Shown here: positions 1 through 30,272 of the stretch, piece by piece | Numbering within the stretch: the first letter of the stretch is position 1 | Layout of the letters: every line of letters starts with the position of its first letter | Source of the DNA: Escherichia phage S164 | Length of the DNA: 30,272 nucleotides | Reading direction: 5' to 3' (one strand) | Sequence record: ON239131 | The notes under the pieces: generated by a model | What the model was told of the DNA's origin: nothing | Database searches by the model: none | The model's input: only the letters and a program-made list of their open reading frames with translations | Translations under genes and position numbers: made by a program

Positions 1-19
1 GGCGAGGCGGGGAAAGCAC
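1..19. other. cos: cos cohesive-end sequence (left copy)
   Basis: GGCGAGGCGGGGAAAGCAC at 1-19 recurs at 30255-30272 (18 nt, truncated by the window); matches the P2 19-nt cohesive end as I recall it. Confidence 0.8.
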
Positions 20-8924: not shown

Positions 8925-9369
8925 GTTTAAGCGTTTTGAAGACCGGCTGACCGGACTGACTGAATCGCTGTCACCGTCAGGGCGTCGGCGACTGAGCGCC
9001 GAACTGGCGAAACGTCTGCGTCAGAGTCAGCAGCGTCGGGTGATGGCACAGAAAGCCCCGGACGGCACACCCTACGCGCCACGCCAGCAGCAGAGCGCCA
9101 GAAAAAAGACTGGTCGTGTTAAGCGAAAAATGTTTGCGAAACTTATCACCAGTCGTTTTTTGCATATCCGCGCCAGCCCGGAACAGGCATCAATGGAATT
9201 TTACGGCGGGAAGTCGCCGAAAATCGCCAGTGTGCATCAGTTCGGTCTGTCGGAAGAAACCCGGAAAGACGGTAAGAAAATTGATTATCCGGCGCGTCCT
9301 CTGCTCGGCTTTACCGGTGAGGATGTGCAGATGATTGAAGAGATTATCCTGGCTCACCTCGACCGTTAG
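8917..9369 (+). CDS. S: Tail completion protein S
   Basis: 150 aa, same as P2 gpS; overlaps the R stop. Confidence 0.85.
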   Translation: MNEFKRFEDRLTGLTESLSPSGRRRLSAELAKRLRQSQQRRVMAQKAPDGTPYAPRQQQSARKKTGRVKRKMFAKLITSRFLHIRASPEQASMEFYGGKSPKIASVHQFGLSEETRKDGKKIDYPARPLLGFTGEDVQMIEEIILAHLDR

Positions 9370-9435
9370 TTGTGCCATCCCCGACACCTCATCGTCACAT
9401 TGCCGCCGGTATGACCCGGCGGCATCCTTCCCGTT

Positions 9436-10071
9436 ATGAACACTCTCGCAAATATTCAGGAACTCGCGCGCGCACTGCGCAACATGATTCGCACCGGCCT
9501 TGTCGTCGAAACCGACCTTAACGCCGGTCGCTGCCGTGTGCAGACCGGCGGCATGTGCACCGACTGGCTTCAGTGGCTGACCTGTCGTGCCGGGCGTTCG
9601 CGCACATGGTGGGCACCTTCCGTGGGGGAGCAGGTGCTGATTCTGGCCGTGGGCGGTGAACTTGACACGGCGTTCGTTCTGCCGGGGATTTATTCCGGTG
9701 ATAACCCCTCGCCGTCTGTGTCGGCGGATGCCCTGCATATCCGTTTCCCTGACGGGGCGGTGATTGAATATGAACCCGAAACCAGTGCACTCACGGTAAG
9801 CGGAATTAAAACGGCCAGCGTGACGGCTTCTGATTCTGTTACTGCCACGGTGCCTGTGGTCACGGTGAAAGCGTCAACCCGTGTCACCCTGGACACACCG
9901 GAAGTGGTCTGCACTAACAAACTGACTACCGGCACGCTGGAAGTGCAGAAGGGCGGGACGATGCGCGGCAACATTGAACACACCGGCGGTGAACTCTCAT
10001 CAAACGGTAAGGTACTGCATACCCATAAACACCCCGGCGACAGCGGCGGCACAACCGGGGGACCTCTATGA
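9436..10071 (+). CDS. V: Baseplate assembly / spike protein V
   Basis: 211 aa, same as P2 gpV. Confidence 0.85.
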   Translation: MNTLANIQELARALRNMIRTGLVVETDLNAGRCRVQTGGMCTDWLQWLTCRAGRSRTWWAPSVGEQVLILAVGGELDTAFVLPGIYSGDNPSPSVSADALHIRFPDGAVIEYEPETSALTVSGIKTASVTASDSVTATVPVVTVKASTRVTLDTPEVVCTNKLTTGTLEVQKGGTMRGNIEHTGGELSSNGKVLHTHKHPGDSGGTTGGPL

Positions 10072-11328: not shown

Positions 11329-11932
11329 TTCGCGCCTGCTGCCGACCGGCTCATCACCGCTTGAGGTCGCCGCCGCAAAAGCCTGTGCGGAAATTGAAAA
11401 AACGCCGGTCAGTATTCGTGAGCTGTGGAACCCGGACACCTGCCCGGCAAATCTGCTGCCGTGGCTGGCGTGGTCATTTTCGGTTGACCGCTGGGATGAT
11501 AAGTGGCCGGAAGCGACAAAACGCGCTGTTATCCGCGATGCGTATTTCATTCACTGCCATAAGGGCACTATAGGCGCAATCCGGCGTGTGGTGGAGCCGC
11601 TCGGCTATCTGATTGAGGTGAGGGAGTGGTGGCAACTCAACGAGGAGCCGGGGACGTTCCGCATCGTTGTTGGCGTGCTTGAGCAGGGTATTACCGAGGA
11701 AATGTATCAGGAGCTGGAGCGTCTCGTTGCTGATGCAAAACCTGCAAGCCGCCATCTGACGGGACTGGCTATCAGTTTAAGTACAACCGGCAACATTTTT
11801 GCCGGTGCGGGATGCTATCACGGCGACGCCCTGACGGTTTATCCCTACACCCCGGAGGCCATTATTGTCGGAGGGGATTATTTCCCGGCCTCGGCCATTC
11901 ATTTAATTGATAACCTGAGAGTAAACGCATGA
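11321..11932 (+). CDS. I: Baseplate / tail protein I
   Basis: 203 aa; ATGAGTGA overlap with the J stop; position between J and H. Confidence 0.8.
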   Translation: MSDSRLLPTGSSPLEVAAAKACAEIEKTPVSIRELWNPDTCPANLLPWLAWSFSVDRWDDKWPEATKRAVIRDAYFIHCHKGTIGAIRRVVEPLGYLIEVREWWQLNEEPGTFRIVVGVLEQGITEEMYQELERLVADAKPASRHLTGLAISLSTTGNIFAGAGCYHGDALTVYPYTPEAIIVGGDYFPASAIHLIDNLRVNA

Positions 11933-13344
11933 CAGTGAAATACTACGCCATTCTGACTAATCAGGGCGCGGCACGGCTGGCTAACGCGACGATGCTCGGA
12001 AGTAAGCTGAATCTGACGCAAATGGCCGTTGGTGATGCGAATGGTGTCTTGCCGACACCAGACCCGGCACAGACAAAGCTGATTAATCAGAAACGCATTG
12101 CACCGCTGAATCTTCTGAGTGTTGACCCGAACAACCAGAGCCAGATTATTGCGGAGCAAATCATCCCTGAGAACGAGGGCGGATTCTGGATCCGTGAGAT
12201 TGGGCTTTATGATGATGAAGGCGTACTCATTGCGGTGGCGAACTGCCCGGAAACGTACAAACCGCAGTTGCAGGAAGGCAGTGGTCGTACCCAGACTATC
12301 CGCATGATTCTGGTTGTCACGAACACCGAAGCCATCACGCTGAAAATCGACCCGTCGGTGGTACTGGCGACCCGTAAATACGTGGATGATAAGGTCCTGG
12401 AATTAAAGCTGTATGTGGATGACCAGATGAGAAACCACATTGCCGCACAGGATCCTCATACCCAGTATGCACAGAAACATAATCCGACATTTACCGGAGA
12501 ACCAAAAGCGCCGACGCCTGCCGCAGGAAATAACACCACGCGGATTGCGACTACTGCGTTTGTTCAGGCCGCTATTACCGCTCTGATTAACGGTGCGCCA
12601 GCCACGCTGGACACACTGAAAGAAATTGCCGCAGCCATTAACAATGACCCGAAATTCAGTACCACCATTAACAATGCGCTGGCACTAAAAGCCCCGCTGT
12701 CGAGTCCGGCACTCACCGGAACGCCAACAGCACCTACTGCGGCACAGTCGGTCAACAATACACAGATTGCCACCACGGCTTTTGTGAAATCAGCAATTGC
12801 GGCAATGGTGGGTTCTGCCCCTGCGGCACTGGATACACTGAATGAACTGGCGGCGGCGCTGGGGAATGACCCTAACTTTTCAACAACAGTGCTTAATGCA
12901 CTGGCAGGTAAACAACCGCTGGACAATACGCTGACTAATTTGAGTGGAAAGGATGTAGCTGGTCTTCTCGCATACCTTCAATTGGGAGAAGCGGCAAAAC
13001 GTAATGTCGGCACCGGTGCAAACCAGATACCGGACATGAACAGTTTTACGTCAGGAAGTACGACAACAGCAGACTGGTACAAGTTACCTGGTGGGTTGCT
13101 TATTCAGTCAGGGATTAATGCGGTTGGTTATATTGGTTCGCCGTTTACTATCGGTCTTCCGGTTGCATTTTCGAACGCCAATTACCGCATAGTTGCCAGT
13201 TATGACAACGCGAGAGCTAACGCAACCTACGGTTTTGCAATGTCTGCCCTCCCGTCAACTGCATCAGCATTCACAATTAACTCAAGTTCAAATGCATCAG
13301 TCGGGCCGGTTTACGCTTACTGGATTGCAATCGGTAAATACTAA
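11929..13344 (+). CDS. H: Tail fibre protein (receptor-binding); shorter than P2 gpH, with a divergent C-terminal tip
   Basis: 471 aa; P2-like N-terminus (MTVKYYAILTNQGAARLANA...); internal ~55-aa tandem repeat; LGEAAKRNVGTGANQIPDMNSF motif; C-terminal tip of the LPGGLLIQ...WIAIG type. Confidence 0.85.
   Translation: MTVKYYAILTNQGAARLANATMLGSKLNLTQMAVGDANGVLPTPDPAQTKLINQKRIAPLNLLSVDPNNQSQIIAEQIIPENEGGFWIREIGLYDDEGVLIAVANCPETYKPQLQEGSGRTQTIRMILVVTNTEAITLKIDPSVVLATRKYVDDKVLELKLYVDDQMRNHIAAQDPHTQYAQKHNPTFTGEPKAPTPAAGNNTTRIATTAFVQAAITALINGAPATLDTLKEIAAAINNDPKFSTTINNALALKAPLSSPALTGTPTAPTAAQSVNNTQIATTAFVKSAIAAMVGSAPAALDTLNELAAALGNDPNFSTTVLNALAGKQPLDNTLTNLSGKDVAGLLAYLQLGEAAKRNVGTGANQIPDMNSFTSGSTTTADWYKLPGGLLIQSGINAVGYIGSPFTIGLPVAFSNANYRIVASYDNARANATYGFAMSALPSTASAFTINSSSNASVGPVYAYWIAIGKY
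12529..12921 (+). repeat. Two tandem copies of a ~55-aa repeat inside tail fibre H (about 12529-12699 and 12754-12921)
   Basis: Protein copies NTTRIATTAFVQAAITALINGAPATLDTLKEIAAAINNDPKFSTTINNALALKAP and NNTQIATTAFVKSAIAAMVGSAPAALDTLNELAAALGNDPNFSTTVLNALAGKQP; DNA copies are diverged. Confidence 0.8.
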
Positions 13345-13356
13345 AAGGCAAATATC

Positions 13357-13779
13357 ATGGGTGAAACAGATTATATTTTCAGTGCGTTCCTGAATGGTTT
13401 TTTACCGCTGGCGTGGAAAGAAGAGAAAGAGGCAACAGGTTCGTGGCCTGATGACGCAATTGAAATAAGCTATGAAGATTATTTGAAGTTTACGACCGAT
13501 GCGCCGAAGGGAAAAATATTGGGTTCGGTTGACGGGCGACCGGCATGGGTTGATATCCCACCGCCGACACATGAAGAACTGATTGCCAGTGCAGAAGCAA
13601 CAAGATTAAGACTGAAGGCTAATGCAGATGCTGAAATCGGCTGGCGACAGGATGCCGTTGATGCGGGCATTGCGACGGACGAGGAAACCGCCATACTCGC
13701 CGAGTGGAAAAAATACCGGGTCTTGCTGATGCGCGTCGACACAGCAAAACCCGTATGGCCTACGCTTCCGACTGCATAA
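13357..13779 (+). CDS. G: Tail fibre assembly chaperone
   Basis: 140 aa; C-terminal EWKKYRVLLMRVDTAKPVWPTLP resembles the conserved C-terminal domain of lambda Tfa / Mu U-type chaperones; RBS AAGG 8 nt upstream. Confidence 0.85.
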   Translation: MGETDYIFSAFLNGFLPLAWKEEKEATGSWPDDAIEISYEDYLKFTTDAPKGKILGSVDGRPAWVDIPPPTHEELIASAEATRLRLKANADAEIGWRQDAVDAGIATDEETAILAEWKKYRVLLMRVDTAKPVWPTLPTA

Positions 13780-14023
13780 TATCAATTAATATCGGTTCGC
13801 CGTTCTCATCGACGGCGAGCATTTTCCCAGCCGGTATTTCTGTTGCGGTAAAAAACCAGTTATCATCCGGCAGTTCTACGGCCCCTTCAGTGCTATGAAT
13901 GCCGGGGATAACTTCATTAAGTGTCTCAGGATTAAAAAGGCGCATAGCGAGCACTCCAATAAAAACCGTCAGCGGATGTTGTTCCATCAGATCGTAATAC
14001 AAGAAAAGTAGCTTTTGTTGCAT
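13760..14023 (-). CDS. Alternative tail-fibre assembly chaperone, N-terminal domain only (U'-like fragment)
   Basis: 87-aa minus-strand ORF; ...AGKMLAVDENGEPILIDIMQSEA resembles the N-terminal domain of Tfa/U chaperones but lacks the conserved C-terminal domain; 3' end overlaps the G 3' end; 5' start uncertain because it overlaps the next ORF by 92 nt. Confidence 0.45.
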   Translation of the reverse strand: MQQKLLFLYYDLMEQHPLTVFIGVLAMRLFNPETLNEVIPGIHSTEGAVELPDDNWFFTATEIPAGKMLAVDENGEPILIDIMQSEA

Positions 14024-14369
14024 CAGTTAAATCAGTTATGACCATCGGTACCCTGACCTTATAAGGGGTTGCTGATGACAATAACAGCGGAGTGGTAGTG
14101 ATAACCTGTGCAGGAGCAGGCAGAGAAATCGGATAATAAACCGCAGCATTTCCCGATATGTTAGCCACAGCATTTCCCCACACCTCTATAGTGCCATCGC
14201 TCCAGATTCGGTATTTACCATTCGCATTCGAGCCTGTTTTAGTCACCACGGCACATTTATCTGTATCGGTATTAACGTTACCAATCAGTGCCAATTTTCC
14301 ACTGGTATTTCCCGCTTCTGCTAAACGAACGTTTATGAAAATGCAGAGATAACGGGTAACTGGCATCAT
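13932..14369 (-). CDS. Alternative tail-fibre C-terminal receptor-binding tip (Sv'-like), not fused to H in this orientation
   Basis: 145-aa minus-strand ORF; ...GKYRIWSDGTIEVWG...FYWSARYAPF parallels the C-terminal tip of H; a stop lies 4 codons upstream of its ATG; region is AT-richer than the core genome. Confidence 0.55.
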   Translation of the reverse strand: MMPVTRYLCIFINVRLAEAGNTSGKLALIGNVNTDTDKCAVVTKTGSNANGKYRIWSDGTIEVWGNAVANISGNAAVYYPISLPAPAQVITTTPLLLSSATPYKVRVPMVITDLTDATKATFLVLRSDGTTSADGFYWSARYAPF

Positions 14370-14396
14370 CTCCGGTTTTTATTCAGGGGGATGCTC

Positions 14397-14990
14397 ATGC
14401 TTATTGGCTATGTACGCGTGTCAACAAATGACCAGAACACGGAATTGCAGCGTAACGCGCTGGAGTGCGCGGGATGTGAGCGGATTTTTGAGGACAAAAT
14501 CAGCGGCACGAAGTCCGACCGACCGGGACTGAAAAAACTGCTCAGAACATTATCAGCAGGTGACACTCTGGTAGTCTGGAAGCTGGACAGGCTGGGGCGT
14601 AGTATGCGGCATCTGGTCATTCTGGTTGAGGAACTGCGCGAACGCGGCGTTAATTTTCGCAGCCTGACAGATGCTATTGATACCAGCACGCCGATGGGGC
14701 GTTTTTTCTTTCATGTGATGGGTGCCCTGGCTGAAATGGAGCGAGAACTCATTGTCGAGCGGACACGCGCCGGACTGGAAGCGGCCAGAGCTAAAGGTCG
14801 TATTGGTGGCAGACGTCCGAAACTCACCGCGAGTGAGTGGGAGCAGGCCGGGCGGTTGCTGGCTGCAGGGGAATCACGTCAACGCGTGGCACTGATTTTT
14901 GATATTGGCCTGTCCACGCTCTATAAAAAATTCCCCGCCTCAGTGACAAAAAATAAATTGTGTCATCCCTTAGCCAACCGGGACAAATAG
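14397..14990 (+). CDS. Serine-recombinase DNA invertase (Hin/Gin/Cin/Pin family)
   Basis: N-terminus MLIGYVRVSTNDQNTELQRNAL... with catalytic Ser; GDTLVVWKLDRLGRS; MGRFFFHVMGALAEMERELIVERT; C-terminal HTH (GLSTLYKKF). ORF opens at 14391, but the Met at 14397 has better RBS spacing (AGGGGG). Confidence 0.9.
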   Translation: MLIGYVRVSTNDQNTELQRNALECAGCERIFEDKISGTKSDRPGLKKLLRTLSAGDTLVVWKLDRLGRSMRHLVILVEELRERGVNFRSLTDAIDTSTPMGRFFFHVMGALAEMERELIVERTRAGLEAARAKGRIGGRRPKLTASEWEQAGRLLAAGESRQRVALIFDIGLSTLYKKFPASVTKNKLCHPLANRDK

Positions 14991-16252: not shown

Positions 16253-16771
16253 ATGGCAATGCCGCGCAAACTCAAGTTAATGAACGTCTTTCTGAACGGC
16301 TACAGCTATCAGGGCGTTGCAAAGTCCGTCACGCTGCCAAAACTGACCCGTAAGCTTGAAAACTATCGCGGTGCGGGGATGAACGGCAGCGCACCGGTAG
16401 ACCTCGGCCTTGATGACGATGCGCTGTCAATGGAGTGGTCGCTCGGGGGCTTCCCGGATTCGGTTATTTGGGAGCTTTACGCCGCAACCGGTGTGGATGC
16501 CGTACCGATTCGTTTTGCAGGCTCTTACCAGCGCGACGATACCGGCGAAACGGTGGCCGTCGAGGTGGTCATGCGTGGCCGTCAGAAAGAAATCGACACC
16601 GGCGAGGGTAAACAGGGAGAAGACACCGAGTCGAAAATCTCCGTGGTCTGCACCTATTTCCGGCTGACGATGGACGGTAAGGAGCTGGTCGAAATCGACA
16701 CCATCAACATGATTGAGAAGGTGAACGGCGTCGACCGGCTGGAGCAACACCGCCGCAATATCGGCCTGTGA
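16253..16771 (+). CDS. FII: Tail tube protein
   Basis: 172 aa, same as P2 gpFII. Confidence 0.9.
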   Translation: MAMPRKLKLMNVFLNGYSYQGVAKSVTLPKLTRKLENYRGAGMNGSAPVDLGLDDDALSMEWSLGGFPDSVIWELYAATGVDAVPIRFAGSYQRDDTGETVAVEVVMRGRQKEIDTGEGKQGEDTESKISVVCTYFRLTMDGKELVEIDTINMIEKVNGVDRLEQHRRNIGL

Positions 16772-16827
16772 TTTTCATCCGGTCAGCCAGGCTGACCGGT
16801 TAACCCTGATTCAGAAGTGAGAAAACC

Positions 16828-17103
16828 ATGAACAAAGAAAATGTGATTACCCTGGACAATCCGGTCAAACGTGGTGAGCAGGTTATCGAACAGGTCACGC
16901 TGATGAAACCCAATGCCGGGACGCTACGCGGTGTCAGTCTGGCTGCGGTTGCAAACTCCGAAGTCGATGCACTGATTAAGGTGCTGCCGCGCATGACGGC
17001 ACCGATGCTGACCGAGCAGGAAGTCGCCGCGCTGGAACTGCCTGACCTTGTGGCGCTGGCCGGTAAGGTGGTCGGTTTTTTGTCGCCGAACTCGGTGCAG
17101 TGA
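16828..17103 (+). CDS. E: Tail assembly chaperone E
   Basis: 91 aa, same as P2 gpE; lies immediately before the tape-measure gene. Confidence 0.85.
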   Translation: MNKENVITLDNPVKRGEQVIEQVTLMKPNAGTLRGVSLAAVANSEVDALIKVLPRMTAPMLTEQEVAALELPDLVALAGKVVGFLSPNSVQ

Positions 17104-17255
17104 CGTTTCCGAAAAATCTCTCGGTCGATGACCTGATGGCGGATGTGGCAGTGATATTTCACTGGCCGCCATCAGAACTGTATCCCATGAGCCTGACCGA
17201 ACTCATCACATGGCGCGAAAAGGCGCTCCGGCGAAGCGGAAACACGAATGAGTAA
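16828..17255 (+). CDS. E': E+E' tail assembly chaperone made by programmed -1 frameshift (about 142 aa)
   Basis: Slippery heptamer TTTTTTG at 17076-17082 near the E 3' end; the -1 frame is open from 17082 to a TAA at 17253-17255, overlapping the T start at 17248. Confidence 0.7.
17076..17082 (+). other. Slippery sequence TTTTTTG for the E to E' -1 frameshift
   Basis: T6G run nine codons before the E stop; position and motif as in P2 E/E'. Confidence 0.7.
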
Positions 17256-19695
17256 CAATGTAAAATTACAGGTATTGCTCAGGGCTGTTGACCAGGCATC
17301 CCGCCCGTTTAAATCCATCCGTACAGCGAGCAAGTCGCTGTCGGGGGATATCCGGGAAACACAAAAATCACTGCGCGAGCTGAACGGTCAGGCATCCCGT
17401 ATTGAGGGATTTCGCAAGACCAGTGCACAGCTCGCCGTGACTGGTCATGCACTTGAAAAGGCACGGCAGGAGGCCGAAGCCCTTGCCACACAATTTAAAA
17501 ATACCGAACGTCCGACCCGTGCTCAGGCGAAAGTGCTGGAATCAGCAAAGCGTGCGGCGGAGGACTTACAGGCGAAATATAACCGCCTGACGGATTCCGT
17601 TAAACGCCAGCAGCGGGAGCTGGCCGCTGTGGGAATTAATACCCGCAATCTTGCACATGATGAGCAGGGACTGAAAAACCGTATCAGTGAAACCACCGCA
17701 CAGCTTAACCGTCAGCGCGACGCGCTGGCGCGTGTCAGTGCGCAACAGGCAAAACTTAACGCAGTCAAACAGCGTTATCAGGCCGGAAAGGAACTGGCCG
17801 GAAATATGGCCTCAGTAGGCGCTGCCGGTGTGGGGATTGCGGCGGCGGGAACGATGGCCGGAGTTAAGTTGCTGATGCCCGGTTATGAGTTTGCGCAGAA
17901 AAACTCAGAATTGCAGGCTGTGCTCGGTGTGGCAAAAGACTCCGCCGAAATGGCTGCACTACGCAAGCAGGCGCGCCAGCTCGGCGACAACACCGCCGCC
18001 TCAGCGGATGATGCGGCCGGTGCGCAGATTATCATTGCGAAAGCGGGTGGAGATGCTGCGGCTATTCAGGCGGCAACGCCGGTCACGCTGAATATGGCAC
18101 TGGCGAATCAGCGGTCGATGGAAGAAAACGCGCAACTGTTGCTGGGGACTAAAGCATCTTTTCAACTGTCAAATGATGATGTCAGCCATGTGGGCGATGT
18201 GTTGTCGGCAACGATGAATAAGTCGGCGGCTGATTTTCAGGGACTTAGTGATGCACTGACTTATCTTGGCCCGGTCGCAAGAACGGCAGGTGTAAGTCTT
18301 GAGCAGGCAGCGGCCATGACAGGTGTGCTGCATGACAATAACATCAGGGGGTCAATGGCGGGTACGGGTAGCAGTGCCGTTGTCACCCGATTACAGGCAC
18401 CGACTGGAAAAGCATGGGATGCACTCAAAGAGCTTGGCGTTAAAACCTCGGACAAAAAGGGAAATATGCGTCCGTTGTTCACCATTCTGAAAGAGATTCA
18501 GGCCAGCTTTGATAAACACAAGCTGGGAACGTCTCAGAAGGGGGAATACCTTAAAACCATTTTTGGTGAGGAAGCCCTGAAATCAGCGAACGTTTTACTG
18601 GCAGCGGCAGCAAGCGGAAAACTGGATACGCTGACCGCCACGCTGAAAGCCTCGGACGGTAAAACGGAAGAGCTGGTTAAAATCATGCAGGATAACCTCG
18701 GCGGTGACTTTAAGGAGTTTCAGTCCGCTTATGAGGCGGTGGGGACTGACCTGTTTGACCAGCAGGAAGGCGCACTGCGTAAGCTCACTCAGACGGCCAC
18801 AAAGTATGTGTTAAAACTCGACGGCTGGATCCAGAAAAACAAATCACTGGCGTCAACCATCGGCCTCATTGTCGGTGGCGCGCTGGCGCTTATTGGCATC
18901 ATCGGTGCCATTGGTCTTGTAGCCTGGCCGGTTATCACCGGCATCAATGCCATCATCGCGGCAGCAGGCGCAATGGGGGCAATCTTCACGACGGTTGGTA
19001 GTGCCGTTATGACGGCCATCGGGGCGATTAGCTGGCCGGTTGTGGCCGTGGTGGCCGCCATTGTCGCCGGGGCGTTGCTTATCCGTAAATACTGGGAGCC
19101 TGTCAGCGCATTCTTTGGCGGTGTGGTTGAAGGGCTGAAAGCGGCATTTGCGCCGGTGGGGGAACTGTTCACGCCACTTAAGCCGGTGTTTGACTGGCTG
19201 GGCGAAAAGTTACAGGCCGCGTGGCAGTGGTTTAAAAACCTGATTGCCCCGGTTAAAGCCACCCAGGACACCCTGAACCGTTGCCGTGATACGGGTGTCA
19301 TGTTCGGGCAGGCACTGGCTGACGCGCTGATGCTGCCGCTTAATGCGTTCAACAAACTGCGCAGCGGTATTGACTGGGTACTGGAAAAACTCGGTGTCAT
19401 CAACAAAGAGTCAGACACACTTGACCAGACCGCCGCCAGAACTCATGCCGCCACGTATGGCACCGGTGGTTATATTCCGGCGACCAGCTCTTATGCAGGC
19501 TATCAGGCTTATCAGCCGGTCACGGCACCGGCTGGCCGCTCTTATGTAGACCAGAGTAAAAACGAATATCACATCAGCCTGACGGGTGGTACTGCGCCGG
19601 GGACACAGCTTGACCGCCAGTTACAGGATGCGCTCGAAAAATACGAGCGGGATAAACGTGCGCGCGCCCGTGCCAGCATGATGCATGACGGTTAA
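17248..19695 (+). CDS. T: Tail tape measure protein
   Basis: 815 aa, same as P2 gpT; helical N-terminus, Gly/Ala-rich hydrophobic central segment. Confidence 0.9.
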   Translation: MSNNVKLQVLLRAVDQASRPFKSIRTASKSLSGDIRETQKSLRELNGQASRIEGFRKTSAQLAVTGHALEKARQEAEALATQFKNTERPTRAQAKVLESAKRAAEDLQAKYNRLTDSVKRQQRELAAVGINTRNLAHDEQGLKNRISETTAQLNRQRDALARVSAQQAKLNAVKQRYQAGKELAGNMASVGAAGVGIAAAGTMAGVKLLMPGYEFAQKNSELQAVLGVAKDSAEMAALRKQARQLGDNTAASADDAAGAQIIIAKAGGDAAAIQAATPVTLNMALANQRSMEENAQLLLGTKASFQLSNDDVSHVGDVLSATMNKSAADFQGLSDALTYLGPVARTAGVSLEQAAAMTGVLHDNNIRGSMAGTGSSAVVTRLQAPTGKAWDALKELGVKTSDKKGNMRPLFTILKEIQASFDKHKLGTSQKGEYLKTIFGEEALKSANVLLAAAASGKLDTLTATLKASDGKTEELVKIMQDNLGGDFKEFQSAYEAVGTDLFDQQEGALRKLTQTATKYVLKLDGWIQKNKSLASTIGLIVGGALALIGIIGAIGLVAWPVITGINAIIAAAGAMGAIFTTVGSAVMTAIGAISWPVVAVVAAIVAGALLIRKYWEPVSAFFGGVVEGLKAAFAPVGELFTPLKPVFDWLGEKLQAAWQWFKNLIAPVKATQDTLNRCRDTGVMFGQALADALMLPLNAFNKLRSGIDWVLEKLGVINKESDTLDQTAARTHAATYGTGGYIPATSSYAGYQAYQPVTAPAGRSYVDQSKNEYHISLTGGTAPGTQLDRQLQDALEKYERDKRARARASMMHDG

Positions 19696-25491: not shown

Positions 25492-27766
25492 AGCCTCCGG
25501 GCGTTTTGTCCCTCCGTCAGCATTTGCCGCAGGCACCGGTGAGACGTTTACCGGTGCTTATGCATGGAACGCGCCACGCGAGGCCGTCGGGCGCGAAAGA
25601 CCCCTTACACGTGACGAGATGCGTCAGGTGCAAGGTGTTTTATCCACGATTAATCGCCTGCCTTACTTTTTGCGCTCGCTGTTTACTTCACGCTATGACT
25701 ACATCCGGCGCAATAAAAGCCCGGTGCACGGGTTTTATTTCCTCACATCCACTTTTCAGCGCCGTTTATGGCCGCGTATTGAGCGCGTGAATCAGCGCCA
25801 TGAAATGAACACCGACGCGTCGTTGCTGTTTCTGGCAGAGCGTGACCATTATGCGCGTCTGCCGGGGATGAATGACAAGGAGCTGAAAAAGTTTGCCGCC
25901 CGTATCTCATCGCAGCTTTTCATGATGTATGAGGAACTCTGCGATGCATGGGTTGATGCACATGGCGAGAAAGAATCGCTGTTTACAGATGAGGCGCAGG
26001 CGCATCTGTATGGTCATGTTGCTGGCGCTGCACGTGCTTTCAATATTTCCCCTCTCTACTGGAAAAAATACCGTAAAGGACAGATGACCACGAGGCAGGC
26101 ATATTCTGCCATTGCCCGTCTGTTTAACGATGAGTGGTGGACTCATCAGCTTAAAGGCCAGCGTATGCGCTGGCATGAGGCGTTACTGATTGCTGTCGGG
26201 GAGGTCAATAAAGACCGTTCTCCTTATGCCAGTAAACATGCCATTCGTGATGTGCGTGCACGCCGCCAGGCAAATCTGGAATTTCTTAAATCGTGTGACC
26301 TCGAAAACAGGGAAACCGGCGAGCGCATCGATCTTATCAGTAAGGTGATGGGCAGTATTTCTAATCCTGAAATTCGCCGGATGGAGCTGATGAACACCAT
26401 CGCCGGTATTGAGCGTTACGCCGCCGCAGAGGGTGATGTGGGGATGTTTATCACTCTGACCGCGCCGTCAAAGTATCACCCGACACGTCAGGTCGGAAAA
26501 GGCGAAAGTAAAACCGTCCAGCTAAATCACGGCTGGAATGATGAGGCATTTAATCCAAAGGATGCGCAGCGTTATCTCTGCCGCATCTGGAGCCTGATGC
26601 GCACGGCATTCAAGGATAATGATTTACAGGTCTACGGTTTGCGAGTCGTCGAGCCACACCACGACGGAACGCCGCACTGGCATATGATGCTTTTTTGTAA
26701 TCCACGCCAGCGTAACCAGATTATCGAAATCATGCGTCGCTATGCGCTCAAAGAGGATGGTGACGAAAGAGGAGCCGCGCGAAACCGTTTTCAGGCAAAA
26801 CACCTTAACCGGGGCGGTGCTGCGGGATATATCGCGAAATACATCTCAAAAAACATCGATGGCTATGCACTGGATGGTCAGCTCGATAACGATACCGGCA
26901 GGCCGCTGAAAGACACTGCCGCGGCTGTTACCGCATGGGCGTCAACGTGGCGCATTCCGCAATTTAAAACGGTTGGCCTGCCGACAATGGGGGCTTACCG
27001 TGAACTACGCAAATTGCCTCGCGGCGTCAGCATTGCTGATGAGTTTGACGAACGCGTCGAGGCTGCACGCGCTGCCGCAGACAGTGGTGATTTTGCGTTG
27101 TATATCAGCGCGCAGGGTGGGGCAAATGTTCCGCGCGATTGTCAGACTGTCAGGGTTGCCCGTAGTCCGTCGGATGAAGTTAACGAGTACGAGGAAGAAG
27201 TCGAGAGAGTGGTCGGCATTTACGCGCCGCATCTCGGCGCGCGTCATATTCATATCACCAGAACGACGGACTGGCGCATTGTTCCGAAAGTGCCGGTCGT
27301 TGAGCCTTTGACTTTAAAAAGCGGCATCGCCGCGCCTCGGAGTCCTGTCAATAACTGTGGAAAGCTCACCGGTGGTGATACTTCGTTACCGGCTCCCACA
27401 CCTTCTGAGCACGCCGCAGCAGTGCTAAATCTGGTTGATGACGGTGTTATCGAATGGAATGACCCGGAGGTTGTGAGGACGCTCAGGGGTGCATTAAAAC
27501 ACGGCCTGAAAACACCAAATCGTCAGCAAAGAAACGGAAGCCCGTTAAAACCACATGAAATAGCACCGTCGGCCAGACTGACCCGGTCGGAACGATTGCA
27601 AATTACCCGTATCCGCGTTGACCTCGCTCAGAACGGTATCAGGCCGCAACGATGGGAGCTTGAGGCGCTGGCGCGTGGCGCGACAGTAAATTATGACGGG
27701 AAAAAATTCACGTATCCGGTCGCTGATGAGTGGTCGGGATTCTCAACAGTAATGGAGTGGACATGA
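25481..27766 (+). CDS. A: Rolling-circle replication initiation protein
   Basis: ORF 25439-27766; start at MAVKASGRF gives 761 aa, the length of P2 gpA; translationally coupled to orf83. Confidence 0.85.
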   Translation: MAVKASGRFVPPSAFAAGTGETFTGAYAWNAPREAVGRERPLTRDEMRQVQGVLSTINRLPYFLRSLFTSRYDYIRRNKSPVHGFYFLTSTFQRRLWPRIERVNQRHEMNTDASLLFLAERDHYARLPGMNDKELKKFAARISSQLFMMYEELCDAWVDAHGEKESLFTDEAQAHLYGHVAGAARAFNISPLYWKKYRKGQMTTRQAYSAIARLFNDEWWTHQLKGQRMRWHEALLIAVGEVNKDRSPYASKHAIRDVRARRQANLEFLKSCDLENRETGERIDLISKVMGSISNPEIRRMELMNTIAGIERYAAAEGDVGMFITLTAPSKYHPTRQVGKGESKTVQLNHGWNDEAFNPKDAQRYLCRIWSLMRTAFKDNDLQVYGLRVVEPHHDGTPHWHMMLFCNPRQRNQIIEIMRRYALKEDGDERGAARNRFQAKHLNRGGAAGYIAKYISKNIDGYALDGQLDNDTGRPLKDTAAAVTAWASTWRIPQFKTVGLPTMGAYRELRKLPRGVSIADEFDERVEAARAAADSGDFALYISAQGGANVPRDCQTVRVARSPSDEVNEYEEEVERVVGIYAPHLGARHIHITRTTDWRIVPKVPVVEPLTLKSGIAAPRSPVNNCGKLTGGDTSLPAPTPSEHAAAVLNLVDDGVIEWNDPEVVRTLRGALKHGLKTPNRQQRNGSPLKPHEIAPSARLTRSERLQITRIRVDLAQNGIRPQRWELEALARGATVNYDGKKFTYPVADEWSGFSTVMEWT

Positions 27767-28218
27767 TGGCAAAAATTCACGAGGTAAAGCTGCACGCAAA
27801 ATATTTCGACCTTGTGCTGGAAGGAAAGAAACGCGCAGAGTTTCGGAAAAATGACCGTAATTATGAGCGCGGGGACACGTTGATTTTGCATGAATGGGGG
27901 CAGGGTGTGTATACGGGGCGAAAGGTTGAAGCCCGGATAACAGATGTTACTGACCTGTCAGACTGGCTGGAAGATTATGTCTTGCTAAGTATTGAGCTGC
28001 TTAATACAGGCGCATATGAGATTGTGAACAGGAAAGAACTTAGTGAGCGTGGTCTGTTATTCAGAATTAATCATGAAATTATGCATAAGCTCGGCCTTGC
28101 TGTTATGTATGAACCAGAGACGGGAATGTCTGGCGGGGCAATGGTTGCCACGGATGGAGCATGGAACTATTCAGATGAACAGATGGAGCGTGCACAGCAA
28201 AACGGGTGGCTTGGATAA
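27763..28218 (+). CDS. orf91-position protein with a possible ASCH/PUA-like (DUF3850-type) N-terminal domain
   Basis: ATGA overlap with the A stop; N-terminus MMAKIHEVKLHAKYFDLVLEGKKRAEFRKNDRNYERGDTLILHEW resembles DUF3850/ASCH-like domains from memory; C-terminal half unrecognised. Confidence 0.55.
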   Translation: MMAKIHEVKLHAKYFDLVLEGKKRAEFRKNDRNYERGDTLILHEWGQGVYTGRKVEARITDVTDLSDWLEDYVLLSIELLNTGAYEIVNRKELSERGLLFRINHEIMHKLGLAVMYEPETGMSGGAMVATDGAWNYSDEQMERAQQNGWLG

Positions 28219-28424
28219 TGCACAGAATACCAGGCGAGATACCGCACCATAAAACTAAAAATATCAAGCTGATGGCTATTGTTCAGCGTTTACAGCGGAT
28301 TATGGTCAACGAAAATCTGACGCCCGATGAGCTAGTCGGGTGTGCCGAAATAGTCCGGGATAATTACGGGCGGTTTAACTATATCGGTCAGTCCAGAGTT
28401 GCGCCACCACCACGCAGACGATAG
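28218..28424 (+). CDS. Small hypothetical protein
   Basis: 68 aa from the internal Met of ORF 28206-28424; TAATG overlap with the preceding gene; GC content like the core genome; no motif recognised. Confidence 0.4.
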   Translation: MHRIPGEIPHHKTKNIKLMAIVQRLQRIMVNENLTPDELVGCAEIVRDNYGRFNYIGQSRVAPPPRRR

Positions 28425-28427
28425 ATA

Positions 28428-28468
28428 ACGCCGCCAGTCGTGAAACTTGTTTTCAGGGCTGGCGGCGT
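28428..28468 (+). other. Stem-loop (10-bp perfect stem ACGCCGCCAG / CTGGCGGCGT, 21-nt loop) overlapping the start of repeat copy A
   Basis: Perfect inverted repeat just downstream of the stop at 28424; no T-run follows, so a classical terminator is unlikely. Confidence 0.45.
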
Positions 28469-28495
28469 TGAACAACGAGTGAAGCGAGGCGTTAG
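28441..28495 (+). repeat. Copy A of a ~55-bp direct repeat preceding moron gene 1
   Basis: Ungapped 42/55 identity by hand alignment with 29413-29467 (TGAAACTTG...GGCGG.GTTGA.CAA.GAGT...GTTAG). Confidence 0.75.
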
Positions 28496-28653
28496 TTGAC
28501 ATTCATATTTTTACTGCGTTGGTGCTGTTTTTTGACGGTTGAAAGGAGTTATCTCGGAGAGCTAAAGCTAACAACTTACAAATATTCAAAAGTAAGCTTC
28601 CTGTTGCTAACATAAGGTCGATTTTTTATGTGGATGATGCAAAAAGGATAGCT

Positions 28654-29385
28654 ATGGATACTATAATCGCTTTTCTATCACTCGCTTTTTTTGTTGCTTT
28701 TTTCATCGGGTTAATCAAGCCATCACTGGTGCGAATGCCAAGCCGCAAACGTGCAAGTGCGGTTTATCTCGGAGGAGGTTTTGTATTGAGCATAATTGGT
28801 TCAATACTCTATCCAACAGAAAAAAGCCAGCCAGTTGCTAAAACTGAAACATCAACCGTTGTAGAACACCAAGTCCAAAAAACATTCGAATATGGTGAAA
28901 AAACACTCAAGGAATATCGGAGCGAGCCAAAGAAAACTCGACACGATATTGTGAATAGTTACATTGACTTTAAGAAAGTTCCAGTCACCGCATCAGATGC
29001 ATTTTATGCCTGCATGAGTGAGTATACATTTACCAAAGATGATGAGTTGAAACTCGGTGATGTTCTTGGGTGGTGCTTTAATGATTATGAAAATGACCCG
29101 AGTTCACTAAATAATAAAATCAATCTTGATACATTTCAGAGTAATTTTAGTGGTTGGGATGGTTCTTATCGTCCATTGGAAAAACTAATTAAAGATAATA
29201 TGAACGATGATTCATCTTATAAACATGTATCAACGGTATATCATTTAGTTTTGAATAAAGACCCGCACGCCATTGTGAAAACGACGTTTCGCGGCACTAA
29301 TGCTTATGGTGGCATGGTCAAACAGACTGTAGCAGCGCGAGTTGACGTGCGAACGGGTGAGATCGATTCAATACTCGACAATTAA
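28654..29385 (+). CDS. Moron gene 1: predicted membrane protein (two N-terminal transmembrane helices plus a ~180-aa C-terminal domain), unknown function
   Basis: ORF 28630-29385 opens on GTG; the ATG at 28654 has RBS AAAAAGGA. Hydrophobic helices IIAFLSLAFFVAFFIGLI and LGGGFVLSIIGSILY. AT-rich relative to the core genome. Occupies the P2 tin/old position. Confidence 0.7.
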   Translation: MDTIIAFLSLAFFVAFFIGLIKPSLVRMPSRKRASAVYLGGGFVLSIIGSILYPTEKSQPVAKTETSTVVEHQVQKTFEYGEKTLKEYRSEPKKTRHDIVNSYIDFKKVPVTASDAFYACMSEYTFTKDDELKLGDVLGWCFNDYENDPSSLNNKINLDTFQSNFSGWDGSYRPLEKLIKDNMNDDSSYKHVSTVYHLVLNKDPHAIVKTTFRGTNAYGGMVKQTVAARVDVRTGEIDSILDN

Positions 29386-29412
29386 ATAATATAGTGACAG
29401 CTCCGTCAGTGA

Positions 29413-29467
29413 TGAAACTTGCTTTTAGTCTTGGCGGGGTTGAGCAATGAGTCTTGCAAGGTGTTAG
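29413..29467 (+). repeat. Copy B of the ~55-bp direct repeat preceding moron gene 2
   Basis: See copy A; lies 28 bp after the stop of moron gene 1. Confidence 0.75.
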
Positions 29468-29507
29468 CATGCGTAGAATGGAAGCTGCTTGGACGTGGGG
29501 TATTCAT

Positions 29508-30125
29508 ATGAATTTAAAAATTTTCGGCATAATTGTCCTTTCTGCTTTGATGTTCGTTTTAGGTTTTTTTCTCGGTGGTTTTAATTGGGAATGGGCTGAT
29601 AAGAATTATGCAGGTGAGGTGGCGTTGTGGAGTATGTTAGGAGGGTGGTTATCCGCAATTGCAACTCTGTTTGCCGTGTTGGTTTCATTATATATGGCGT
29701 ATCAAGCTACTCAGAATGAGATTGAAAAAATCAGGGTTACTCATGGAGTAAGTATGAGTGTCACTCATGACAATGAGTTAAGTTGTAATCTCATTATTCA
29801 GAACTTGAGAAATATGAAAGTGAATATTACTGGTGTTTTTTTGTCTCTAGGTAAATCATCAGGTAAGTACTCTTTGGATAAAGTAATTGACAATTGTAAT
29901 ATAACGCTTTCATATAAAGGTGAAACAGAAAAGGTACAATTTGTAATCCATTCTGGGTATATTTGGTGGTCAATGTATAAATTATTCGATATGGATAAGA
30001 ACATAGGTTTTGAAAAGGGTAAGATCTTTATAACAACCAACCTCAATACATATGAATTTGATTTGCCAAAAGAATATTTAAGAGCTTTTGAGAAAGCTTA
30101 TTCGGAGTATCAGACAAAAAAATAA
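29508..30125 (+). CDS. Moron gene 2: predicted membrane protein (N-terminal transmembrane hairpin plus a ~140-aa C-terminal domain), unknown function
   Basis: ORF 29454-30125 opens on TTG; first ATG at 29469, but I prefer MNLKIFGIIV at 29508. Helices IFGIIVLSALMFVLGFFLGGF and LGGWLSAIATLFAVLVSLYMAY. Strongly AT-rich with A/T-rich codon usage; last gene before cos. Confidence 0.7.
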   Translation: MNLKIFGIIVLSALMFVLGFFLGGFNWEWADKNYAGEVALWSMLGGWLSAIATLFAVLVSLYMAYQATQNEIEKIRVTHGVSMSVTHDNELSCNLIIQNLRNMKVNITGVFLSLGKSSGKYSLDKVIDNCNITLSYKGETEKVQFVIHSGYIWWSMYKLFDMDKNIGFEKGKIFITTNLNTYEFDLPKEYLRAFEKAYSEYQTKK

Positions 30126-30254
30126 TGAGCTGCATGCAAAAGGTGCATGTTTTTGCATGTGCTAAGTTCACTGGTTTTGTGTATATCGCTTCAGATCTAG
30201 CGTGGTTCCGGGGAGGGCATGCAACTGCATTAAAACCGCTCCATGAAGCGGGCG

Positions 30255-30272
30255 GGCGAGGCGGGGAAAGCA
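30255..30272. other. cos: cos cohesive-end sequence (right copy, 18 of 19 nt)
   Basis: Exact repeat of window positions 1-18. Confidence 0.8.

What the first reader, a model, noticed from the sequence alone, without database searches (positions are those of the whole stretch)
16828..17255. Conserved -1 programmed frameshift in the tail chaperone pair E/E'
A TTTTTTG slippery heptamer at 17076-17082 sits nine codons before the E stop. I checked the -1 frame codon by codon: it is open from 17082 to a TAA at 17253-17255, which overlaps the start of the tape-measure gene T. This gives a ~142-aa E+E' product, the classic G/GT-type arrangement of long-tailed phages.
Basis: partly seen in the sequence, partly recalled or inferred. 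Interest (0 to 1): 0.35.

Follow-up and report, generated by a model that had tools for sequence, protein, structure and literature searches.

The report
Known P2 tail-chaperone E/E' frameshift
This is the well-known programmed -1 ribosomal frameshift that lets phage P2 and its relatives make two tail-assembly proteins (E and E+E') from one start codon; the window is a P2-type phage genome whose site is base-for-base identical to P2, so the finding is correct but ordinary.

Summary
E runs 16828-17103 (91 aa). T_TTT_TTG lies at 17076-17082 in the X_XXY_YYZ phase. The -1 frame is open from 17067 to a TAA at 17253-17255, which overlaps the ATG of T (17248). The fusion product is 142 aa.

The window is a complete, cos-to-cos P2-like phage genome. 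Positions 16800-17270 differ from phage P2 (AF063097) at 2 bases, and the stretch from the heptamer to the T start is identical. The P2 record already annotates E, E+E' ("-1 frameshift; essential tail protein") and the shift site. The fusion differs from UniProt O64312 (Tail assembly protein E') only by S29N.

Pfam places Phage_TAC_7 in E and Phage_P2_GpE in the -1 frame. In 18 divergent relatives (77-37% identity) E' always lies in the -1 frame. Fourteen of them, like the window, keep TTTTTTG at the homologous position, even in GC-rich genomes where those codons are rare; the other four have other slippery heptamers.

No downstream RNA structure or E' start codon is conserved.

Verdict: already known; low interest. 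One loose end remains. U_UUU_UUG shifts at only 0.1-0.8% in E. coli reporters, yet P2-type shifting is reported to be more efficient than lambda's.

The parts
16253..16771 (+). FII, tail tube gene (upstream neighbour that sets the synteny)
   Evidence: 172-aa ORF; Pfam Phage_tube PF04985, E=2e-60; aligns to P2 FII.
16828..17103 (+). E, tail assembly chaperone, zero-frame product (91 aa, TGA stop)
   Evidence: ORF. Pfam Phage_TAC_7 PF10109, 47 bits against a cutoff of 25; PHROG 103, 'tail'. Two nucleotide differences from P2 E: one synonymous, one S29N. The exact 91-aa sequence is on at least 1000 public contigs, named 'phage tail assembly protein'.
17064..17066 (+). TAA in the -1 frame, marking the 5' limit of the stretch where a -1 shift is productive
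   Evidence: Translation of the -1 frame shows a stop immediately before GGRFFVAELG; the -1 frame opens 34 nt before the E stop.
17076..17082 (+). Slippery heptamer T_TTT_TTG (P-site Phe UUU, A-site Leu UUG)
   Evidence: Sequence and phase. It is the only in-phase XXXYYYZ in the E/E' overlap. Identical to the P2 site, where a 'site of -1 translational frameshift' feature maps to window position 17083. The window and 14 of 18 divergent relatives carry TTTTTTG at the homologous position.
17082..17255 (+). E' segment, read in the -1 frame after the shift (57 codons plus TAA)
   Evidence: Open frame. Pfam Phage_P2_GpE PF06528, 76 bits against a cutoff of 23, on fusion residues 104-139. PHROGs 1756 and 6416, 'tail'. 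100% identical to P2. No start codon is conserved in this frame among relatives.
16828..17255 (+). E+E' composite coding region (142-aa frameshift product; base 17082 is read twice)
   Evidence: The fusion sequence differs from P2 gpE+E' (AAD03292.1 / NP_046780.1 / O64312) only at residue 29; the P2 version of this junction is an exact database match.
17248..19695 (+). T, tape measure gene; its ATG overlaps the E' stop (ATGAGTAA)
   Evidence: 815-aa ORF; Pfam PhageMin_Tail PF10145, E=2e-44; P2 gpT annotation. The ATGAGT(A/G)A overlap recurs in at least six relatives.

Best explanation
This is the E/E+E' programmed -1 ribosomal frameshift site of a P2-type (Peduovirus) phage.

Most ribosomes translating E read through T_TTT_TTG and stop at the TGA at 17101, giving the 91-aa protein gpE. 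A minority slip back one base on the heptamer. The Phe-tRNA moves from UUU at 17077-79 to UUU at 17076-78, and the Leu-tRNA moves from UUG at 17080-82 to UUU at 17079-81. These ribosomes then continue with GUC (Val) at 17082 in the -1 frame and terminate at the TAA at 17253. The result is the 142-aa protein gpE+E', which shares its first 85 residues with gpE.

By analogy with lambda gpG/gpGT, the shared E part is thought to coat the tape-measure protein T. The E' extension is thought to recruit tail-tube subunits. The fixed frameshift rate would set the E : E+E' ratio needed for tail assembly, and neither protein should end up in the virion.

Shown here: the sequence anatomy, identity to P2, domain content and deep conservation of the arrangement. 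Taken from the literature: that the shift occurs, that E' is essential, and the approximate efficiency. Inferred: the tandem-slippage detail and the chaperone roles.
For: 1. Anatomy is exact.

2. Positions 16800-17270 differ from P2 AF063097 at 2 of 471 bases, and the heptamer-to-T-start stretch is identical. The P2 record annotates E, E+E' ('shares amino terminus with gpE; -1 frameshift; essential tail protein') and the shift site.

3. Literature. PMC3091744 states the P2 shift at TTTTTTG gives 91-aa E and 142-aa E+E'. PMC5009743 cites Christie et al. 2002 for P2-type efficiency 2-3 times lambda's.

4. Pfam finds Phage_TAC_7 in E and Phage_P2_GpE in the -1 frame, both above their gathering scores. 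The gene order is sheath-tube-E-E'-TMP-U-D.

5. tblastn of the fusion against phage genomes finds 417 records. In 400 of them one place covers at least 80% of the query, and in the listed records the match is split into two pieces.

6. In all 18 relatives taken at even steps down that ranking (77-37% identity; Enterobacterales, Burkholderia, Ralstonia, Stenotrophomonas, Pseudomonas, Halomonas, Aeromonas, Vibrio, Acidovorax, Mannheimia), E' is in the -1 frame and an in-phase slippery heptamer lies in the overlap. Counting the window, 15 of 19 carry TTTTTTG. The other four carry TTTTTTT, TTTTTTC, A_AAT_TTT or G_GGA_AAG.

7. Selection acts at the nucleotide level. In seven loci with at least 60% GC, E elsewhere uses TTC over TTT 9:1, TTG for 6 of 87 Leu codons and GGT for 4 of 39 Gly codons. 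The site nevertheless stays (N)NT TTT TT(G/T).

8. The deposited P2 fusion has the GFL|VAELG junction predicted by tandem slippage.
Against: Nothing in the sequence argues against it. The caveats are these.

- No experiment exists on this particular phage; the claim rests on identity with P2.
- I could not read Christie et al. 2002 directly, so the efficiency figure is second-hand.
- U_UUU_UUG is a poor -1 motif in E. coli reporter assays: 0.118% without a stimulator, 0.247% and 0.765% with two stimulators (PMC4066793 supplement).
- I found no conserved stimulatory structure. How the native site reaches the reported level is therefore unexplained.
- The chaperone roles of E and E' are inferred from lambda. 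There is no sequence similarity to lambda G/T, no solved structure, and my single-sequence model was unusable.
Confidence: 0.93

Rival explanations
1. Transcriptional slippage. RNA polymerase adds one extra U in the U6 run, producing a subpopulation of mRNAs in which E and E' are in frame. The protein would then carry GFF|VAELG rather than GFL|VAELG.
For: The site is a homopolymer run. Inserting one U gives the same downstream frame. The measured ribosomal -1 efficiency of U_UUU_UUG in E. coli reporters is very low (0.12-0.77%), which leaves room for another contributor.
Against: The run is only 6 nt. Known bacterial slippage sites use runs of about 8-9 or more (own knowledge). Two relatives have non-homopolymeric heptamers, A_AAT_TTT in Xuanwuvirus P88_4B11 and G_GGA_AAG in Mannheimia PHL101. 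These fit tandem tRNA re-pairing but not polymerase slippage. The curated P2 product has the FLV junction, although that may be a conceptual translation.
Confidence: 0.03
2. E' is a separate small gene, initiated on its own (for example at GTG 17100, giving 51 aa). Many GenBank records of relatives annotate it this way, as a 'GpE family protein'.
For: A GTG at 17100 opens a 51-aa ORF. At least nine of the 18 relatives have E' annotated as a stand-alone CDS.
Against: That GTG is not conserved. It has no counterpart at the same offset in any of the 18 relatives, and three relatives have no ATG/GTG/TTG at all in the first 75 nt of the -1 frame after the heptamer. The recurrent ATG at about +54 is the Met inside the conserved DDLMAD motif, and no Shine-Dalgarno sequence precedes it. 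PHROG 1756 aligns from fusion residue 82, upstream of any such start. The P2 record states that E+E' shares its amino terminus with gpE through a -1 frameshift.
Confidence: 0.02
3. Chance: an incidental T-run and an incidental open -1 frame with no function.
For: TTTTTTG is common in this window (18 copies), and in-phase XXXYYYZ heptamers occur at the random expectation (29 against about 34).
Against: The -1 frame carries a Pfam domain at E=1e-21. The two-frame arrangement is conserved down to 37% identity in other bacterial orders. The heptamer is kept against codon bias.
Confidence: 0.01

Closest known systems
Bacteriophage P2 gpE / gpE+E' (UniProt TAP_BPP2 and TAPFS_BPP2 O64312; GenBank AAD03291/AAD03292; Christie et al. 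2002, J Bacteriol 184:6522)
   Same: Effectively the same locus. Only 2 of 471 nt differ and the heptamer-to-T-start stretch is identical. The lengths match (91 and 142 aa), as do the junction and the FI-FII-E-E'-T-U-D operon order.
   Different: One amino-acid change (S29N in the shared E part) and one synonymous change. The surrounding genome differs from P2 in cargo: no orf30, a different tail fibre plus an invertase in place of fun(Z), and different genes in place of tin/old.
Lambda gpG / gpGT tail assembly chaperones and the conserved long-tailed-phage frameshift (Levin et al. 1993; Xu, Hendrix & Duda 2004, 2013, 2014)
   Same: Same position between the tail-tube/major-tail gene and the tape-measure gene. 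Same logic of a short protein plus a -1 frameshift extension made at a fixed low ratio from a slippery heptamer near the 3' end, with no downstream structure required.
   Different: No detectable sequence similarity: Pfam hits only PF10109 and PF06528. The heptamer is T_TTT_TTG rather than G_GGA_AAG. P2 is a contractile-tailed phage. The reported efficiency is 2-3 times higher than lambda's, although the heptamer is far weaker in reporters. The binding partners of E and E' have not been shown here.
E. coli dnaX and IS911/IS3 -1 frameshift sites (A_AAA_AAG with an upstream Shine-Dalgarno-like element and a downstream hairpin or pseudoknot)
   Same: X_XXY_YYZ tandem-slippage heptamer ending in G, decoded by E. 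coli ribosomes.
   Different: No conserved downstream structure: z=-1.56 and -0.88 in the window, and 0 consensus pairs in 16 relatives. The SD-like AGGTGGTC lies only 2 nt upstream of the heptamer rather than 10-14 nt, and it is missing in several relatives.

Membership tests
P2 gpE / gpE+E' tail assembly protein pair | N-terminal E domain belongs to Pfam Phage_TAC_7 (PF10109) | tested here: met
   47.0 bits against a gathering score of 25, residues 7-85; PHROG 103, E=3e-45.
P2 gpE / gpE+E' tail assembly protein pair | The -1 frame extension belongs to Pfam Phage_P2_GpE (PF06528) | tested here: met
   76.3 bits against a gathering score of 23, fusion residues 104-139; PHROGs 1756 and 6416.
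P2 gpE / gpE+E' tail assembly protein pair | In-phase T_TTT_TTG inside the short E/E' overlap | tested here: met
   17076-17082, in phase with E, and the only XXXYYYZ in the 34-nt overlap. Identical to P2.
P2 gpE / gpE+E' tail assembly protein pair | Gene order sheath (FI) - tube (FII) - E - E' - tape measure (T) - U - D | tested here: met
   Pfam assignments of all seven ORFs; collinear with the P2 annotation.
P2 gpE / gpE+E' tail assembly protein pair | The 142-aa frameshift product is made in vivo and E' is essential | not testable with these tools
   Reported for P2 in the GenBank note 'essential tail protein; -1 frameshift' and in PMC3091744 and PMC5009743, both citing Christie 2002. The primary paper is not held.
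G/GT-type tail assembly chaperone frameshift of long-tailed phages (Xu et al. 2004) | Two overlapping ORFs between the major tail/tube gene and the tape-measure gene, the second in the -1 frame | tested here: met
   The same arrangement holds in 18 of 18 divergent relatives.
G/GT-type tail assembly chaperone frameshift of long-tailed phages (Xu et al. 2004) | The second ORF lacks its own conserved start codon or ribosome-binding site | tested here: met
   No start codon is conserved in position between the heptamer and the E' domain; three relatives have none within 75 nt.
G/GT-type tail assembly chaperone frameshift of long-tailed phages (Xu et al. 2004) | The slippery sequence is conserved among relatives beyond what coding requires | tested here: met
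   15 of 19 carry TTTTTTG and 4 of 19 carry other slippery heptamers. The site is kept against strong GC codon bias.
G/GT-type tail assembly chaperone frameshift of long-tailed phages (Xu et al. 2004) | The short form binds the tape-measure protein, the extension binds tube protein, and both are absent from virions | not testable with these tools
   Shown for lambda (PMC5009743). For P2 this is inferred from synteny only. There is no PDB relative, and the single-sequence AF2 model has pLDDT 40.
Transcriptional-slippage recoding sites | Long homopolymer run (about 8-9 nt or more) that is a homopolymer in all relatives | tested here: not met
   The run is T6. Relatives use A_AAT_TTT and G_GGA_AAG.
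Stimulated -1 PRF sites (dnaX / IS3 type) | Conserved downstream hairpin or pseudoknot 5-9 nt after the heptamer | tested here: not met
   Fold z-scores of -1.56 and -0.88. RNAalifold on 16 heptamer-anchored relatives gives no pairs. This agrees with PMC3091744.

The most novel reading that the evidence does not exclude
The P2-type site may depend on a still-unrecognised stimulator. Candidates are the flanking nucleotides, the SD-like AGGTGGTC 2 nt upstream, the nascent GKVVGFL peptide, or slow decoding of UUG/UCG.

The reasoning is as follows. U_UUU_UUG alone gives only 0.12% shifting in E. coli reporters, and under 0.8% even with a pseudoknot. The native site is nevertheless reported to outperform lambda's G_GGA_AAG. 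The G at position 7 is also conserved in 15 of 19 lineages, although UUC or UUU would be slipperier.

My data do not exclude this, and they do not positively support it either. The conserved flanks are also constrained by coding in two frames.
Probability: 0.2. Interest if true: 0.3.

Novelty: already known. Interest (0 to 1): 0.06.

Why it matters
The practical value is for annotation. In this genome E+E' should be annotated as a joined CDS (16828..17082, 17082..17255), not as a stand-alone 'GpE family' ORF or a hypothetical protein. In the small sample I looked at, at least nine of 18 related GenBank records annotate E' as a separate gene and three omit it.

Biologically it adds nothing new. 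The P2 E/E' frameshift was established in 2002 and its conservation across long-tailed phages in 2004.

The one open point is quantitative: how a heptamer that is weak in reporter assays reaches the reported efficiency without a visible stimulator.

Tried and rejected
- Reading Christie et al. 2002 directly: not held by DOI or PMC id. I relied on two open-access papers that cite it and on the GenBank annotation.

- Downstream stimulatory RNA: folds of 17083-17170 and 17040-17140 are not better than shuffles (z=-1.56 and -0.88). Per-locus MFE folds show small hairpins 1-3 nt after the heptamer in some relatives, but they are not consistent. RNAalifold gives no consensus pair. Rejected.

- Rfam scan of the whole window: nothing at gathering scores.

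- Solved structures: no PDB sequence relative for the fusion protein or for an 18-sequence profile (the best hit has E=0.74 and is meaningless).

- Structure prediction from the single sequence: pLDDT 40, pTM 0.27, unusable, so no fold search was run.

I kept the 18-locus panel drawn evenly from 417 phage records.

- SD-like element as a stimulator: present in enteric relatives but absent in Burkholderia and Stenotrophomonas, and its spacing is wrong for -1 stimulation (spacing rule from own knowledge). Not supported.

- A first automatic frame assignment picked wrong frames in GC-rich loci. It was redone with protein-guided frame choice.

- Full alignment of the window against P2 in Python was not possible because locus L002 was not copied to the script machine. 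I compared ORF maps instead.

Full report
**1. The observation**

The sequence is as described. The ORF called E starts with ATG at 16828 and ends with TGA at 17101-17103, giving 91 aa. TTTTTTG occupies 17076-17082. In the E frame the bases read GG-T TTT TTG (codons 83-85, Gly-Phe-Leu), so the heptamer is in the X_XXY_YYZ phase required for tandem -1 slippage.

The -1 frame has a TAA at 17064-17066. It is then open from 17067 to a TAA at 17253-17255. A -1 shift is therefore productive only within a 34-nt stretch, and the T-run is the only in-phase slippery heptamer in that stretch.

The TAA overlaps the ATG (17248) of an 815-aa ORF whose Pfam match is the tape-measure family PhageMin_Tail. Reading 16828-17082 and then 17082-17252 gives 85 + 57 = 142 residues.

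There is one small inaccuracy. Six sense codons, not nine, follow the heptamer before the E stop.

**2. Is it more than chance?**

The heptamer alone is not special. TTTTTTG occurs 18 times in the window. The 34 ORFs contain 29 in-phase XXXYYYZ heptamers against about 34 expected. Among those 29, the E site gives the longest -1 extension, at 57 codons.

Only one other heptamer has a -1 frame that runs past the zero-frame stop. That is an A7 run at the very end of an ORF at 30116, and its extension simply runs off the end of the window. The E extension, in contrast, ends precisely at the next gene's start. It also carries a Pfam domain, Phage_P2_GpE (76 bits, cutoff 23).

**3. What the window is**

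The window starts with GGCGAGGCGGGGAAAGCAC and ends with GGCGAGGCGGGGAAAGCA. These are the P2 cohesive-end sequences, so it is a complete 30.3-kb P2-like phage genome.

Around the finding the gene order is sheath FI, tube FII, E, E', tape measure T, U, D. This is collinear with the P2 FETUD operon. A 1148-bp query spanning FII to T is 98.7% identical to P2 AF063097.

**4. Identity with the known site**

Positions 16800-17270 differ from P2 at two bases. One change is synonymous and the other changes Ser29 to Asn. Everything from 16914 to 17270, including the heptamer, all of E' and the T start, is identical.

The P2 record annotates three features here:
- gene E;
- a joined CDS E+E' ('shares amino terminus with gpE; -1 frameshift; essential tail protein');
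- a 'site of -1 translational frameshift' that maps to window position 17083.

An exact-sequence look-up shows that the deposited P2 E+E' protein (AAD03292.1 / NP_046780.1 / UniProt O64312, 'Tail assembly protein E'') has the junction ...GFL|VAELG.... This is the reading the first-stage reader proposed. The window's fusion differs from it only at residue 29. The window's 91-aa E sequence is found on at least 1000 public contigs.

**5. Literature**

[quoted passage not shown] It also reports that no downstream hairpin is present, citing Christie et al. 2002 and Xu et al. 2004.

The 2016 recoding review describes the lambda G/GT model: the short form coats the tape measure, the extension binds the major tail protein, the ratio is about 30:1, and neither protein is in virions. 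[quoted passage not shown] The primary P2 paper is not in the held library.

**6. Independent comparative test**

tblastn of the 142-aa fusion against 50,697 phage records finds 417 records. In 400 of them one place covers at least 80% of the query, and in the listed records the match is split into two pieces.

I took 18 records at even steps down the ranking, from 77% to 37% identity. Their hosts range from Klebsiella and Erwinia to Burkholderia, Ralstonia, Stenotrophomonas, Pseudomonas, Halomonas, Aeromonas, Vibrio, Acidovorax and Mannheimia. Frames were assigned by protein alignment.

In all 18, E' lies in the -1 frame relative to E and an in-phase XXXYYYZ lies in the overlap. Counting the window, the 19 sequences split as follows:
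- 15 have T_TTT_TTG at the homologous Gly-Phe-Leu position;
- Smp131 has TTTTTTT;
- Vibrio MAR has TTTTTTC;
- Xuanwuvirus P88_4B11 has A_AAT_TTT at the same position;
- Mannheimia PHL101 has lost the T-run but has G_GGA_AAG, the lambda heptamer, a few codons downstream.

In the seven loci with at least 60% GC, codon use elsewhere in E strongly avoids the site's codons. TTC outnumbers TTT 9:1, TTG accounts for 6 of 87 Leu codons, and GGT for 4 of 39 Gly codons. The site nevertheless remains (N)NT TTT TT(G/T). This shows selection on the nucleotides themselves rather than only on the Gly-Phe-Leu residues.

**7. Rivals**

*Independent initiation of E'.* The GTG at 17100 has no counterpart at the same offset in any of the 18 relatives. 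Three relatives have no possible start in the first 75 nt of the -1 frame. The recurrent ATG at about +54 is the Met inside the conserved DDLMAD motif, and no Shine-Dalgarno sequence precedes it. The PHROG for E' aligns from fusion residue 82, upstream of any such start.

*Transcriptional slippage.* The run is only six T's. The A_AAT_TTT and G_GGA_AAG variants are not homopolymers, yet they fit tRNA re-pairing.

*Chance.* This is excluded by the Pfam domain and by the conservation.

**8. Stimulators**

The 88 nt after the heptamer fold no better than shuffles (z=-1.56). A 101-nt stretch centred on the heptamer gives z=-0.88. RNAalifold on 16 heptamer-anchored relatives predicts no pairs, and Rfam finds nothing.

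An SD-like AGGTGGTC sits at 17066-17073, 2 nt before the heptamer. It recurs in enteric relatives but not in Burkholderia or Stenotrophomonas, and it also encodes the conserved Lys/Glu-Val-Val/Ile residues. By the dnaX spacing rule (own knowledge) it is too close to stimulate a -1 shift.

**9. A loose end**

In the systematic E. coli reporter study (PMC4066793, supplement), U_UUU_UUG gives the following:

| Motif | No stimulator | IS911 elements | IS3 pseudoknot |
|---|---|---|---|
| U_UUU_UUG | 0.118% | 0.247% | 0.765% |
| G_GGA_AAG | 0.277% | 3.80% | 42.99% |

The P2-family heptamer is therefore intrinsically weak. Yet it is reported to shift more often than lambda's, and its final G is conserved. 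I found nothing in the sequence that explains this. It may reflect context effects that reporters miss, or an unrecognised stimulator.

**10. Structure and function**

There is no solved relative by sequence or by profile. A single-sequence AlphaFold2 model was unusable, with pLDDT 40. The chaperone roles (E on the tape measure, E' recruiting tube protein) therefore remain an inference from synteny and from the lambda model.

**11. Verdict**

The feature is the textbook P2 E/E+E' programmed -1 frameshift in a phage whose site is identical to P2. It is already known and of low interest. The only practical consequence is correct annotation of the joined CDS.

Noticed in passing
window 1-19 and 30254-30272: The window begins with the P2 cosL sequence GGCGAGGCGGGGAAAGCAC and ends with GGCGAGGCGGGGAAAGCA. 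It is therefore a whole linear P2-like phage genome of 30.3 kb, not a prophage fragment with host flanks. No record in the phage collection covers it completely; the best is pro483, at 92% of the first 25 kb and 97.4% identity.
   Followed up: partly
window 11929-14990: The tail-fibre region differs from P2.
- H is 471 aa (669 aa in P2), with a Gp53-like C-terminus.
- A tail-fibre assembly gene follows at 13357-13779.
- A minus-strand ORF at 13932-14369 has a weak Gp53-like_C match (E=5e-4, below cutoff).
- A Hin/Gin-type serine invertase (Resolvase + HTH_7) lies at 14391-14990, where P2 has fun(Z).

This looks like an invertible tail-fibre host-range switch. Only short inverted repeats were found: 14 nt perfect at 13395-13408 / 13845-13858, and 22 nt at 77% complementarity at 13320-13341 / 14211-14232. 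Similar invertases are annotated in pro483 and MET_P1_103_31.
   Followed up: partly
window 27730-30125: The cos-proximal region between replication gene A and the genome end is the P2 defence hotspot (old/tin in P2; Rousset et al. 2022, PMC9122126). Here it holds an ASCH/DUF3850+DUF7415 protein (27730-28218) and two ORFs of 251 aa (28630-29385) and 223 aa (29454-30125). Neither of the two has a Pfam or PADLOC match. The last roughly 900 bp have no close match in the phage collection. These are candidate uncharacterised anti-phage genes.
   Followed up: partly
window 9369-9436: P2 orf30 (786 bp, minus strand, between S and V) is absent. V starts at 9436, directly after S ends at 9369.
   Followed up: no
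window 17066-17073: The SD-like sequence AGGTGGTC can pair with the 16S 3' end over 8 positions, including one G-U pair. It lies 2 nt upstream of the slippery heptamer. AGGTGAT(C/T) is at the same place in four enteric relatives, but the element is absent in Burkholderia and Stenotrophomonas. It also encodes the conserved K/E-V-V/I residues. Whether it has any effect on frameshifting is unknown.
   Followed up: partly
Sharma et al. 2014 supplement, compared with window 17076-17082: U_UUU_UUG is one of the weaker heptamers in E. coli reporter assays (0.118 / 0.247 / 0.765%). P2-type shifting is nevertheless reported to be 2-3 times more efficient than lambda's. No stimulator was found.
   Followed up: partly
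public protein QTN08932.1 (E. coli, 4.84-Mb contig): A 142-aa protein identical to P2 E+E' but with the junction GFF|VAELG exists as an ordinary annotated ORF on one contig. This implies a T7 run there, either a real +1T mutation that fuses E to E' permanently or a homopolymer sequencing error.
   Followed up: no
L019 (Mannheimia phage PHL101), L016 (Xuanwuvirus P88_4B11), L009 (Smp131), L017 (Vibrio MAR): The slippery site has been replaced in some lineages. PHL101 lacks the T-run (GAT TTA ATG) and instead has G_GGA_AAG, the lambda G/GT heptamer, five codons before its E stop. P88_4B11 has A_AAT_TTT at the homologous position, Smp131 has TTTTTTT, and MAR has TTTTTTC.
   Followed up: partly
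L006, L007, L011-L013, L015, L016, L018, L020; L014, L017, L019: Annotation is inconsistent in GenBank. Nine of the 18 sampled relatives annotate E' as a separate small CDS ('P2 GpE family protein' or similar). Three do not annotate it at all. Only EtG, Milagro and Smp131 carry the joined frameshift CDS. Three records have no annotation.
   Followed up: yes
window 30116-30122: An A7 run forms the last codons of the 223-aa ORF, just before its TAA. The -1 frame after it stays open for 50 codons to the end of the window, through the cos region. This is probably incidental, and there is no evidence of function.
   Followed up: no
window 17248-17255 and relatives: The E' stop overlaps the T start as ATGAGTAA, and ATGAGT(A/G)A recurs in at least six relatives. 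Only ribosomes that have shifted frame terminate at the T start; zero-frame ribosomes stop 145 nt upstream. Some T translation could therefore be coupled to E+E' synthesis. This was not tested.
   Followed up: no
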